A DNA stretch of 64,000 nt from Escherichia coli (GTDB taxonomy: Bacteria; Pseudomonadota; Gammaproteobacteria; Enterobacterales; Enterobacteriaceae), in assembly GCF_048403405.1 (NCBI RefSeq), contig NZ_CP183129.1; one strand, given 5' to 3'. The position numbers were made by a program. Position 1 is the stretch's first letter, and each line of letters begins with the position of its first letter. Shown here one piece after another: positions 52,001 through 55,000 of this stretch.

Positions 52001-55000
52001 CGATGTTCATCACACTTTTGGTGCTACTTTGTTTTAACTTGCTGGGTGAAGGTTTTGAAGTGGCGTTACCTCGCGTAATCGATACGCTGATTGGTTGTGC
52101 CATTGCGTGGGCGGCGGTGAGCTACATCTGGCCTGACTGGAAGTTTCGCAATCTGCCGCGAATGCTCGAACGCGCCACAGAGGCCAACTGTCGGTATCTC
52201 GATGCCATACTGGAACAATACCATCAGGGGCGTGATAACCGTCTGGCGTATCGTATTGCCCGCCGCGATGCACACAACCGTGATGCTGAACTGGCGTCGG
52301 TGGTATCAAATATGTCCAGCGAACCGAACGTTACCCCGCAAATTCGCGAAGCCGCGTTTCGGTTGCTGTGCCTTAACCATACGTTTACCAGCTATATCTC
52401 AGCCCTCGGTGCTCACCGGGAGCAGTTAACTAATCCTGAAATTCTGGCGTTTCTTGATGACGCCGTTTGCTATGTTGATGACGCGCTACATCATCAACCT
52501 GCTGATGAAGAACGCGTCAATCAGGCATTAGCTGGCCTGAAACAGCGGATGCAGCAACTTGAACCTCGGGCAGACAGCAAAGAACCTCTGGTCGTACAAC
52601 AAGTTGGGTTATTGATTGCATTACTGCCAGAGATTGGTCGTCTGCAACGCCAGATTACTCAAGTTCCGCAGGAAACTCCTGTTTCGGCGTAAGAGAGTCA
52701 GCCCATTCTGCAAGCTCCTGGCGGCGTGCCACCGGGAGCGCAGCTTCATGAATGCCGATAATGGCCCCTTCAAGCATAAACAGAATCTTTTCTGTCACCA
52801 GACTGTTTTGCTGCCGCAGTCGCAACCAACACATTTTTGCCCCAAGTATACGTAACGCCCGTACATCCTTAATCCCCACCTCCCCGAGAATCGCTTCCAG
52901 ATGAAAAGACATATTGGGCAAATCTTTCAGTCTTTCCCGGGTATTGCGCGTGCTTTTCTCTTTCAGCGCTGCATCGAGAGAATATTTCGACAGACGCACC
53001 AGCTTCAGTTGATTTCGCCATAGACTTTCATCAACCCGATAGTAATTGAGGGTAACGGATCGGCCACACTTTTTATATGTCAGCCAGACAGGCGGATGTT
53101 TTACACAGTACTGTGCACTTTGCTCACAAGCCCGAAGATACAACTCACCATCAGAAACCATCGCAAACACCGTGTCGTCAACGGTCAGGCTGTAACTGCC
53201 AAACAATGATCGGTATTCAATTGTGCCCAACGTTGCCAGGTATTCTTGTGATTTATAGATCCGCTTATAGGAGAGGCTTTTCATAAAATTCCTTTTAAAA
53301 TCATAACATAAAAGAATGATTCACATTAACGGATCCGTTAACTACGAAAATAGGCAACTTATTCTTAAGGGGCAAGATTAATTTATGTTTTCCCGTCACC
53401 AACGACAAAATTTGCGAGGCTCTTTCCGAAAATAGGGTTGATCTTTGTCGTCACTGGATGTACTGTACATCCATACAGTAACTCACAGGGGCTGGATTGA
53501 TTATGTACACTTCAGGCTATGCACATCGTTCTTCGTCGTTCTCATCCGCAGCAAGTAAAATTGCGCGTGTCTCTACGGAAAACACTACAGCCGGGCTTAT
53601 CAGTGAAGTTGTCTATCGCGAAGATCAGCCCATGATGACGCAACTTCTACTGTTGCCATTGTTACAGCAACTCGGTCAGCAATCGCGCTGGCAACTCTGG
53701 TTAACACCGCAACAAAAACTGAGTCGGGAATGGGTTCAGGCATCTGGGCTACCCTTAACGAAAGTGATGCAGATTAGCCAGCTCTCCCCTTGCCACACCG
53801 TGGAGTCAATGGTTCGCGCTTTACGCACGGGCAATTACAGTGTGGTGATCGGTTGGTTGGCAGATGATTTGACTGAAGAAGAGCATGCTGAACTTGTTGA
53901 TGCGGCAAATGAAGGTAACGCTATGGGGTTTATTATGCGTCCGGTAAGCGCATCCTCTCACGCAACGAGACAACTTTCCGGGCTAAAAATTCACTCTAAT
54001 TTGTATCATTAAGTAAATTTAGGATTAATCCTGGAACTTTTTTTGTCGCCCAGCCAATGCTTTCAGTCGTGACTAATTTTCCTTGCGGAGGCTTGTCTGA
54101 AGCGGTTTCCGCGATTTTCTTCTGTAAATTGTCGCTGACAAAAAAGATTAAACGTACCTTATACAAGACTTTTTTTTCATATGCCTGACGGAGTTCACAC
54201 TTGTAAGTTTTCAACTACGTTGTAGACTTTACATCGCCAGGGGTGCTCGGCATAAGCCGAAGATATCGGTAGAGTTAATATTGAGCAGATCCCCCGGTGA
54301 AGGATTTAACCGTGTTATCTCGTTGGAGATATTCATGGCGTATTTTGGATGATAACGAGGCGCAAAAAATGAAAAAGACAGCTATCGCGATTGCAGTGGC
54401 ACTGGCTGGTTTCGCTACCGTAGCGCAGGCCGCTCCGAAAGATAACACCTGGTACACTGGTGCTAAACTGGGCTGGTCCCAGTACCATGACACTGGTTTT
54501 ATTCCTAACAATGGTCCGACCCACGAAAACCAACTGGGTGCAGGTGCTTTTGGTGGTTACCAGGTTAACCCGTATGTTGGCTTTGAAATGGGTTACGACT
54601 GGTTAGGTCGTATGCCGTACAAAGGCGACAACATCAACGGCGCATACAAAGCTCAGGGCGTTCAGCTGACCGCTAAACTGGGTTACCCAATCACTGACGA
54701 TCTGGACATCTACACTCGTCTGGGTGGTATGGTATGGCGTGCAGACACCAAGGCTAACGTACCTGGTGGCGCATCTTTTAAAGACCACGATACCGGCGTT
54801 TCTCCGGTCTTCGCTGGCGGTGTTGAGTATGCGATCACTCCTGAAATCGCTACCCGTCTGGAATACCAGTGGACCAACAACATCGGTGACGCACACACCA
54901 TCGGTACTCGTCCGGACAACGGCATGCTGAGCCTGGGTGTTTCCTACCGTTTCGGTCAGGGCGAAGCAGCTCCAGTAGTTGCTCCGGCTCCAGCTCCGGC

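What the first reader, a model, noticed from the sequence alone, without database searches (positions are those of the whole stretch)
52655..52692. Convergent 38-nt overlap between yccS and sxy (tfoX)
yccS (plus) ends at 52692 and sxy (minus) ends at 52655. sxy expression is tightly controlled post-transcriptionally; a 3' overlap with a convergent membrane protein gene could contribute antisense effects.
Basis: seen in the sequence. Interest (0 to 1): 0.15.

Follow-up and report, generated by a model that had tools for sequence, protein, structure and literature searches.

The report
Overlapping ends of yccS and sxy
Two facing E. coli genes do share their last 38 bases, but this is already annotated, already listed as a transcript overlap, and about what chance gives for genes packed this tightly; the only conserved signal nearby is an RNA hairpin inside sxy that probably marks the end of the yccS message.

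Summary
yccS (+) ends at 52692 and sxy (-) ends at 52655, so they share 38 nt. The same overlap is annotated in MG1655 and in PGAP genomes. The pair is already listed among 165 convergent "excludons" of E. coli, on RNA-seq coverage alone.

The overlap carries no conserved information. It encodes two unconserved tails lying beyond the last conserved residues of both proteins. In 80 Enterobacteriaceae species the genes overlap in 76, by 4 to 80 nt, because the stop codons drift within a roughly 58-nt variable segment. Random filler in that segment gives an overlap 80% of the time.

What is conserved lies 21 nt past the yccS stop. It is an 11-bp hairpin (core 52714-52739) built from sxy codons 182-191. 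Its synonymous sites are frozen, it shows compensatory changes, and its G·U pairs favour the yccS-sense strand. It has no U tract and a C-rich stretch follows it.

My best reading, which is inferred, is that this hairpin is the 3'-end stem-loop of a Rho-dependent yccFS terminator embedded in sxy.

Nothing shows antisense regulation of sxy. I found no mapped 3' ends. Interest is low.

The parts
50074..50520 (+). yccF, the first gene of the yccFS operon. Its transcript reads towards sxy.
   Evidence: ORF; annotated; the yccFS operon is described in PMC4161252.
50530..52692 (+). yccS coding sequence. The ORF is 720 aa here. K-12 annotates a start 9 nt later, giving 717 aa. It is a FUSC-like inner-membrane protein.
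52655..53284 (-). sxy (tfoX) coding sequence, 209 aa. The TfoX_C domain ends at residue 194.
52655..52692 (.). The 38-nt tail-to-tail overlap. It holds YccS residues 709-720 plus the stop, and Sxy residues 197 (part) to 209 plus the stop.
   Evidence: The tails are not conserved in sequence or length.
52645..52702 (.). The 58-nt hypervariable segment between the last conserved codons of the two genes (YccS L704 and Sxy W194). Both stop codons drift within it.
   Evidence: Segment length is 48-59 nt in 78 of 80 species. A random-filler simulation is, the alignment.
52708..52743 (+). Conserved RNA hairpin. The core 11-bp stem pairs 52714-52724 with 52729-52739. E. coli adds an outer 4-bp stem; dG is -22 kcal/mol. 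It is made of sxy codons 181-193 read in antisense, and it starts 16 nt (core 21 nt) after the yccS stop. Proposed role: the 3'-end stem-loop of yccFS mRNA.
52758..52900 (+). A C-rich, G-poor tract on the yccS-sense strand just downstream of the hairpin (C/G 1.9-3.4 in 78-nt windows). It is a candidate Rho loading (rut) region.
   Evidence: The C>G skew is conserved over sxy codons 125-180 in 80 species. Its function is inferred only.

Best explanation
yccS and sxy are two real convergent genes with no intergenic DNA.

The 38-nt overlap is a passive by-product. The conserved parts of the two proteins end 58 nt apart. Each reading frame then runs on through a fast-evolving segment until it meets a stop codon. 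This gives two short unconserved tails that happen to overlap. This part is shown.

Because there is no room for a terminator between the genes, the 3'-end structure of the yccFS transcript sits inside the sxy coding sequence. It is a stable hairpin (core 52714-52739, + strand) 21 nt past the yccS stop. It has no U tract and is followed by a C-rich, G-poor tract. That is the architecture reported for Rho-dependent 3' ends in E. coli. In that model Rho terminates downstream, and 3' exonucleases trim the RNA back to the protective stem-loop.

The conservation of the hairpin and its strand bias are shown. Its role as the yccFS 3' end, and the involvement of Rho, are inferred.

One consequence is that mature yccFS mRNA would be complementary to about the last 90 nt of the sxy coding sequence. 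The conserved element would act to stop yccFS transcription from running antisense across the rest of sxy and its promoter.
For: Overlap and its evolution:
- The coordinates agree with the annotation.
- Of 80 Enterobacteriaceae species, 76 overlap, by 4 to 80 nt. One abuts and three have gaps.
- The distance from the sxy start to the yccS start is nearly constant. The inter-core segment is 48-59 nt in 78 of 80.
- The tails are unconserved and no nucleotide in the junction is conserved.
- Random filler gives an overlap in 79.5% of trials.

Hairpin:
- Codon entropy across 81 unique sxy sequences is 0.50 bit for L183 (CTC 93%), 0.10 for P184 (CCG 99%), 0.59 for R188 (CGC 90%) and 0.44 for E190 (GAG 91%). 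Other equally conserved Leu, Arg, Pro and Ala codons show mostly 1.2-2.5 bits.
- For the 11-bp stem, 91% of cells pair, against 38-52% when partners are slid. Five pairs change on both sides (39 cells). No shuffle out of 500 reached four of the five measures.
- RNAalifold recovers the stem independently.
- G·U pairs on the yccS-sense strand number 83 cells. The reverse case, A·C here (G·U on the sxy-sense strand), numbers 24. Paired cells are 91.0% against 83.7%.
- In 44 of 73 sequences the central pair is U·G on the yccS-sense strand but C·A on the sxy-sense strand.
- The hairpin is in the top 0.4-1.3% of 110-nt windows for hairpin stability in the five loci tested that carry it.
- 75 of 80 loci keep at least 9 of 11 pairs. 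In 74 of these the yccS stop lies 12-49 nt upstream of the stem, never inside it.
- Where the hairpin has decayed or the genes are separated, another non-homologous strong hairpin follows the yccS stop. This is seen in L049, L051, L064, Tatumella L084, Chimaeribacter L088 and Proteus L090.
- There is no U tract.
- C/G reaches 3.4 downstream, and the skew is conserved.
- The architecture matches PMC6061677.
- The element occurs once in the window, so it is not a repeat.
Against: - I could not find a mapped 3' end. The held supplements of Adams 2021 contain no sxy or yccS entry and no coordinate in the region. The supplements of Dar 2018, Conway 2014 and ExcludonFinder are not held.
- The 101-nt context is not unusually stable against dinucleotide shuffles (z = -0.64).
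- The amino-acid sequence itself predisposes to a GC-rich hairpin. The synonymous-resampling null has a mean of -15.7 kcal/mol. The observed value reaches P = 0.04 for E. coli and P = 0.009 for Salmonella.
- The palindrome folds about equally well on the sxy-sense strand in E. coli (-22.8 against -22.5 kcal/mol).
- Four lineages (L052, L083, L085, L087) have no strong hairpin after the yccS stop.
- The C>G skew could simply reflect Sxy amino-acid composition.
- Cells in the pair counts are not phylogenetically independent.
Confidence: 0.55

Rival explanations
1. Regulatory excludon. In this view the obligatory complementarity of the yccFS and sxy 3' ends is itself selected. yccFS transcription would lower or gate Sxy expression through RNA polymerase collision or RNase III cleavage of the duplex.
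For: - sxy-yccS is listed as a convergent excludon, present in at least 50% of 58 RNA-seq samples.
- The convergent, spacer-free arrangement is retained across Enterobacteriaceae and in Tatumella and Rosenbergiella.
- Excludon pairs in general show higher synteny than other neighbours.
- A cis-antisense duplex needs no sequence conservation.
Against: - There is no expression, RNase III or dsRNA datum specific to this pair.
- Listing is automatic for pairs whose coding sequences overlap.
- 75% of convergent operons overlap at their 3' ends anyway.
- Overlap length is free to drift from 0 to 80 nt.
- Chimaeribacter (Yersiniaceae) and Proteus (Morganellaceae), the two such relatives examined, keep a spacer with a hairpin.
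- Known E. coli Sxy control is by CRP-S autoregulation and proteolysis.
- The conserved hairpin would shorten, not extend, antisense transcription.
Confidence: 0.15
2. The hairpin works in the sxy mRNA, on the minus strand. It might act as a translational pause, a stability element or a processing site about 50 nt before the sxy stop, with no relation to yccS.
For: The palindrome also folds on the sxy-sense strand (-22.8 kcal/mol in E. coli). It lies within sxy, and its conservation tracks sxy orthologues.
Against: - The G·U versus A·C asymmetry favours the other strand, 83 cells against 24.
- In 44 of 73 sequences the central pair is a C·A mismatch on the sxy-sense strand.
- The stem is read through by ribosomes.
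- The stem has decayed in two lineages where yccS has moved away from sxy (L049, and by folding energy L051), although L051 still keeps at least 9 of 11 nominal pairs.
- Replacement hairpins track the yccS stop, not a fixed place in sxy.
Confidence: 0.15
3. The hairpin has no function. It is a by-product of a conserved GC-rich peptide motif (A-L-P-A...R-R/Q-E-L) and of codon bias. The junction is simply compact.
For: The synonymous-resampling null is already at -15.7 ± 3.8 kcal/mol, and the E. coli value has P = 0.04 only. The z-score of the 101-nt context is -0.64.
Against: - Frozen non-preferred codons (CTC for Leu, GAG for Glu) persist across 81 sequences in which other synonymous sites are saturated.
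- Compensatory G-C to A-U changes appear in several genera.
- Non-homologous replacement hairpins arise where the original is lost.
Confidence: 0.1
4. The palindrome is a DNA site for a dimeric protein, or a cruciform, rather than an RNA structure.
For: It has ten-bp inverted arms with a 4-6 bp spacer of free sequence.
Against: Both arms change together to keep complementarity. That is expected for a stem, not for a recognition sequence. G·U-type asymmetry has no meaning for duplex DNA. Replacement hairpins have unrelated sequences.
Confidence: 0.05

Closest known systems
Convergent excludons and overlapping 3' UTRs of neighbouring genes (ExcludonFinder, PMC12288877; Conway et al. 2014, PMC4161252)
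   Same: The genes are convergent and their transcripts are complementary at the 3' ends. This very pair is in the published E. coli list. The terminator of one gene lies inside the neighbour's transcription unit, which is reported for 146 of 165 E. coli convergent excludons.
   Different: Here the coding sequences themselves overlap, and the 3' structure lies inside the neighbour's coding sequence, not its UTR. Mutually exclusive expression, dsRNA and RNase III processing have not been shown for this pair.
Protective stem-loops at Rho-dependent transcript 3' ends (Dar and Sorek 2018, PMC6061677)
   Same: There is a stable stem-loop shortly after the stop codon, no U-rich tail, and a C-rich, G-poor region immediately downstream.
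   Different: No mapped 3' end or bicyclomycin sensitivity is available for this site. The stem is built from the codons of another gene and is held by synonymous-site constraint.
Intrinsic bidirectional terminators between convergent genes, such as the ompA/matP terminator in this same window (about 55428-55459)
   Same: A GC-rich hairpin serves the end of a convergent gene. Chimaeribacter (Yersiniaceae) and Proteus (Morganellaceae) have such an intergenic hairpin between sxy and yccS.
   Different: There is no U tract on either side (one search found no terminator-like site at 52693-53300). The hairpin is not intergenic. The evidence points to one strand only.
The sxy 5' UTR secondary structure that controls translation in Haemophilus influenzae (PMC2248739, PMC3739930)
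   Same: It is an RNA structure associated with sxy, and it is the basis for the claim of post-transcriptional control.
   Different: It lies at the other end of the gene, on the other strand, in another organism, and works by another mechanism. It is not evidence for 3' antisense control in E. coli.

Membership tests
Tail-to-tail (convergent) overlapping protein-coding genes | Both ORFs are genuine protein-coding genes | tested here: met
   Pfam finds FUSC-like and FUSC_2 in YccS, and TfoX_N and TfoX_C in Sxy. Orthologues occur across Enterobacterales.
Tail-to-tail (convergent) overlapping protein-coding genes | The first in-frame stop of each gene lies inside the other gene's coding sequence | tested here: met
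   The stops are at 52690-52692 (+) and 52657-52655 (-). The annotation is the same.
Convergent excludon | Transcripts of the two genes overlap in vivo | not testable with these tools
   This is reported from RNA-seq in PMC12288877 and PMC4161252. I did not verify it here, and no per-pair data are held.
Convergent excludon | Expression of one gene reduces expression of the other (mutual exclusion), through interference or RNase III | not tested
   I found no datum for this pair.
Rho-dependent 3' end with protective stem-loop (Dar and Sorek type) | An energetically stable stem-loop shortly downstream of the stop codon | tested here: met
   dG is -22 kcal/mol, 16 nt after the stop. It is in the top 0.4-1.3% of 110-nt windows in the five loci tested that carry it. 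It is conserved with covariation.
Rho-dependent 3' end with protective stem-loop (Dar and Sorek type) | No uridine-rich tract after the stem | tested here: met
   The tail is CUUCAUGAAU. The terminator scan found nothing there.
Rho-dependent 3' end with protective stem-loop (Dar and Sorek type) | A rut-like C-rich, G-poor region immediately downstream | tested here: inconclusive
   C/G is 1.9-3.4 at 52758-52900, and the skew is conserved in 80 species. The composition could equally come from Sxy codons.
Rho-dependent 3' end with protective stem-loop (Dar and Sorek type) | A mapped steady-state RNA 3' end at the base of the stem, with read-through on Rho inhibition | not testable with these tools
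   There is no hit in the held supplements.
Intrinsic (Rho-independent) terminator | A GC-rich hairpin followed directly by a U tract | tested here: not met
   The hairpin is present but there is no U tract. The scan of 52000-53700 finds no site after either stop, apart from a weak one at 52329-52314 on the minus strand.
Known RNA families (Rfam 15) | A match to a curated covariance model | tested here: not met
   There are no matches at 52600-52800 at E <= 1.

The most novel reading that the evidence does not exclude
The coding-embedded hairpin and the spacer-free junction may form a conserved coupling device. Every yccFS mRNA would end in a stem-loop inside sxy, and so would carry about 90 nt perfectly complementary to the sxy mRNA 3' end. 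yccFS transcription would then set the threshold for induction of the competence and CRP-S regulator Sxy, through RNase III cleavage or polymerase collision. That could help explain why sxy is so hard to induce in E. coli.
Probability: 0.1. Interest if true: 0.5.

Novelty: already known. Interest (0 to 1): 0.18.

Why it matters
As given, it matters little. The overlap is in every annotation and in a published excludon list. It is also the expected outcome of two genes whose conserved parts are 58 nt apart.

The modest added value is the hairpin. It is a clean example of a transcript-end structure written into the synonymous sites of a neighbouring gene. Compensatory changes maintain it across a bacterial family, and non-homologous hairpins replace it where it is lost. 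This is a reminder that synonymous changes near the 3' end of sxy are not neutral. Engineering or recoding either gene could therefore disturb the other. If the hairpin proved to gate antisense transcription over sxy, it would bear on the long-standing puzzle of what induces Sxy in E. coli.

Tried and rejected
- **Canonical terminators:** I scanned 52000-53700 on both strands. None follows either stop codon.
- **Rfam:** The scan of 49500-55500 found nothing at the junction.
- **Published 3' ends:** The Adams 2021 supplements have no sxy, yccS or yccF entry and no coordinate beginning 10213-10218. The supplements of Dar 2018, Conway 2014 and ExcludonFinder are not held.
- **Full-text searches:** A search for 'yccS' returned mostly unrelated acronyms. 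A search for 'yccF' with 'terminator' added nothing.
- **A matching element for the sxy transcript inside yccS:** Codon entropy over the last 260 yccS codons shows no cluster of frozen synonymous sites. The E. coli hairpins at about 52502 and 52547, and the long fold at 52560-52670 (z = -1.8), are not conserved and do not covary.
- **Conserved nucleotides in the overlap itself:** There are none.
- **Hairpin as a repeated element (REP-like):** It occurs once in the window.
- **Palindrome as a DNA-binding site:** Rejected because the two arms covary.
- **Function of the Sxy C-terminal tail:** Published truncations remove 37 aa or more, so they do not address the last 12 residues.
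Full report
**1. The observation**

The window is an E. coli chromosome segment: helD, yccF, yccS, then sxy, sulA, ompA and matP, inverted relative to MG1655.

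- The ORF list and the sequence show yccS on the + strand at 50530-52692 and sxy on the - strand at 53284-52655.
- Both genes end at their first in-frame TAA.
- The same geometry is annotated in MG1655 (sxy 1021138..1021767, yccS 1021730..1023883) and by PGAP in a strain identical to the window.
- The region is present in 5425 of 5426 complete E. coli genomes. The 61-mer spanning the overlap is identical in 5214 of 5418.
- Both genes are real. YccS carries FUSC-like and FUSC_2 domains. Sxy carries TfoX_N and TfoX_C, the latter ending at residue 194.

**2. What the overlap encodes**

- On the yccS side it is the last 12 codons (ITQVPQETPVSA). On the sxy side it is the last 12 codons and part of a 13th (LTPKQEFPAELE).
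- An alignment of 15 Sxy orthologues is invariant up to W194. After that it loses all conservation of sequence and length.
- YccS is conserved up to about RLQRQ (residue ~707) and then diverges.
- The overlap is therefore made of two tails lying beyond the conserved body of each protein.

**3. Comparison across species**

A scan of one genome per species returned 80 Enterobacteriaceae loci from about 25 genera. I located both stop codons in each (corrected).

- sxy and yccS are convergent neighbours in all 80.
- The coding sequences overlap in 76, by 4, 7, 11, 14, 16, 20, 23, 32, 35, 38, 41, 44, 47 or 80 nt.
- They abut in one locus. Gaps of 11, 249 and 2286 nt occur in three.
- The distance from the sxy start to the yccS start is almost constant. 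The segment between the last conserved codons (Sxy W194, YccS L704) is 48-59 nt in 78 of 80, and 58 nt in 47.
- The overlap length therefore changes through stop-codon drift on a fixed scaffold.
- A DNA alignment of the junction has no conserved column in that segment.

More distant relatives gave the following:

| Relative | Arrangement |
|---|---|
| Enterobacteriaceae bacterium ESL0689 | overlap of 4 nt |
| Tatumella | overlap of 26 nt |
| Rosenbergiella | overlap of 26 nt |
| One unnamed lineage | gap of 2 nt |
| Chimaeribacter (Yersiniaceae) | spacer of 44 nt |
| Proteus (Morganellaceae) | spacer of 70 nt |
| One unnamed lineage | yccS not adjacent to sxy |

The Chimaeribacter and Proteus spacers each hold a strong palindromic hairpin.

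**4. Is the overlap more than chance?**

No. I replaced the 58-nt segment in the E. coli context with random sequence of the observed composition. The two frames overlapped in 79.5% of 20,000 trials, and by at least 38 nt in 69%. The overlap is what two frames do when their conserved parts are this close and nothing dictates where the stops fall.

**5. What is conserved: a hairpin next to the overlap**

Folding 36-nt windows downstream of each stop showed one outlier. On the + strand at 52708-52743 lies CUGCAAGCUCCUGGCGGCGUGCCACCGGGAGCGCAG, with dG of -22 kcal/mol. It begins 16 nt after the yccS stop. The next best hairpin in 700 nt is -12.6. It is made of sxy codons 181-193 (AALPVARRQELAE) read in antisense.

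Five lines of evidence say it is maintained as a structure.

- **(a) Frozen synonymous sites.** Across 81 unique sxy sequences, synonymous sites are saturated at almost all conserved residues. Leu, Arg, Pro and Ala codons there mostly show 1.2-2.5 bits. In the stem, L183 is CTC in 93%, P184 is CCG in 99%, R188 is CGC in 90% and E190 is GAG in 91%, at 0.1-0.6 bit.
- **(b) Pairing and compensatory change.** On a gap-free alignment of 73 distinct sequences, the 11-bp stem pairs in 91% of cells. With the 3' partners slid, only 38-52% pair. Five pairs show changes on both sides, in 39 cells, for example G-C to A-U in several genera. No shuffle out of 500 reached the observed pairing, double-change cells, pair types or covariation score. 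RNAalifold finds the same stem unprompted.
- **(c) Free loop.** The loop (the codons between P184 and R188) varies freely.
- **(d) Local stability.** In the five loci tested that carry the hairpin, it ranks in the top 0.4-1.3% of 110-nt windows for hairpin stability. It occurs once in the window.
- **(e) Breadth.** 75 of 80 loci keep at least 9 of 11 pairs. In 74 of these the yccS stop lies 12-49 nt upstream of the stem and never within it.

**6. Which strand?**

- G·U pairs are tolerated on the yccS-sense strand in 83 cells. The reverse case, A·C here (G·U on the sxy-sense strand), occurs in 24. Paired cells are 91.0% against 83.7%.
- The central pair is U·G on the yccS-sense strand in 44 of 73 sequences. 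On the sxy mRNA that is a C·A mismatch.
- The canonical stem has decayed in two lineages where yccS has moved away from sxy: L049 (249-nt gap) and, by folding energy, L051 (two genes inserted; it still keeps at least 9 of 11 nominal pairs). In both, a different hairpin follows the yccS stop directly.
- Pluralibacter (L064) and Tatumella (L084) have non-homologous strong hairpins made from other sxy codons.
- These points favour a role in the yccFS transcript. They are suggestive, not proof. The cells are not independent, and in E. coli the palindrome folds equally well on both strands.

**7. Proposed mechanism**

- The hairpin has no U tract. Its tail is CUUCAUGAAU, and the terminator scan finds nothing there. 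It is therefore not a canonical intrinsic terminator.
- It is followed on the same strand by a C-rich, G-poor tract (C/G 1.9-3.4 at 52758-52900). That skew is conserved across the 80 species.
- This is the arrangement described for Rho-dependent 3' ends in E. coli: precise steady-state ends just after stable stem-loops without U tracts, with rut sites immediately downstream (PMC6061677).
- I therefore propose the following. yccFS transcription passes the yccS stop, and Rho loads on the C-rich tract inside antisense sxy and terminates there. Exonucleases then trim the RNA back to the hairpin.
- The hairpin, its conservation and its strand bias are shown. The roles of Rho and of trimming are inferred.

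No comparable conserved element exists for the sxy transcript inside yccS. Its 3' end is unknown.

**8. Weaknesses**

- I found no mapped 3' end.
- The 101-nt context is not exceptionally stable against shuffles (z = -0.64).
- The peptide motif itself favours a GC-rich hairpin. Synonymous resampling gives P = 0.04 for E. coli and P = 0.009 for Salmonella.
- Four lineages lack any strong hairpin after the yccS stop.

**9.

- Transcript overlap is documented. Conway et al. show this very region and state that the sxy and yccFS operons converge. ExcludonFinder lists sxy-yccS among 165 convergent excludons.
- That list is defined by coverage alone, and such overlap is the rule (276 of 370 convergent operons).
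- Post-transcriptional control of sxy is established for the H. influenzae 5' UTR. In E. coli the described controls are CRP-S autoregulation and proteolysis.
- Nothing shows an antisense effect on sxy. The conserved hairpin would, if anything, restrict antisense transcription. The idea is not excluded, and I give it about 0.15.

**10. Verdict**

The adjacent hairpin, embedded in the sxy coding sequence, appears not to have been described. I could not check RegulonDB or the TransTermHP predictions used by ExcludonFinder. In any case it belongs to a known kind: a 3'-end stem-loop, or terminator, lying inside the neighbour's transcription unit. That arrangement is reported for 146 of 165 E. coli convergent excludons.

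Interest is low.

Noticed in passing
window 53243-53269 (sxy codons 6-14, minus strand): There is synonymous-site constraint near the 5' end of sxy across 81 Enterobacteriaceae sequences: Y6 is TAT in 89%, Y10 is TAT in 99% and E14 is GAA in 100%. This could reflect an RNA structure or a translation-initiation constraint at the sxy 5' end, where H. influenzae sxy is regulated.
   Followed up: no
window 55428-55459: A GC-rich hairpin with T runs on both sides (CCCCGCTGCTGCGGGG followed by TTTTTTTT) lies between the convergent genes ompA and matP. It drew weak Rfam hits to terminator parts of sRNA models on both strands. It is a canonical bidirectional terminator and a useful contrast to the spacer-free yccS/sxy junction.
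   Followed up: partly
window 50530 versus 50539: The yccS start differs between annotations. PGAP uses the ATG at 50530 (720 aa, 9 nt after the yccF stop). MG1655 RefSeq uses a start 9 nt later (717 aa).
   Followed up: no
L051 4616-6901; L049 4625-4873: In Superficieibacter electus, two genes sit between sxy and yccS: a 200-aa protein and a 425-aa membrane protein. In Enterobacteriaceae bacterium UBA5654, a 249-nt spacer holds two separate hairpins, one after each stop. In L049 the sxy-internal hairpin has decayed. In L051 it is weak by folding energy (-13.8 kcal/mol) but still scores at least 9 of 11 nominal pairs.
   Followed up: partly
window 52560-52670, minus strand: Downstream of the sxy stop, the sxy-sense RNA can form a long imperfect hairpin (dG -32.6 kcal/mol; z = -1.8; 6 of 200 shuffles as good). 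It is not supported by synonymous conservation or covariation in yccS.
   Followed up: yes
window 52300-53000 versus E. coli genomes: Four of 5427 matches to this chromosomal region lie on records labelled as plasmids, and some genomes hold two copies. Within E. coli, the 61-mer containing the hairpin is identical in 4640 of 5421 genomes. The 61-mer containing the overlap is identical in 5214 of 5418. I did not locate the variant positions.
   Followed up: no
window 53497-54012 (sulA): Conway et al. report an antisense transcription unit over sulA that turns on in stationary phase, and co-transcription of sulA with ompA. I did not examine this here.
   Followed up: no
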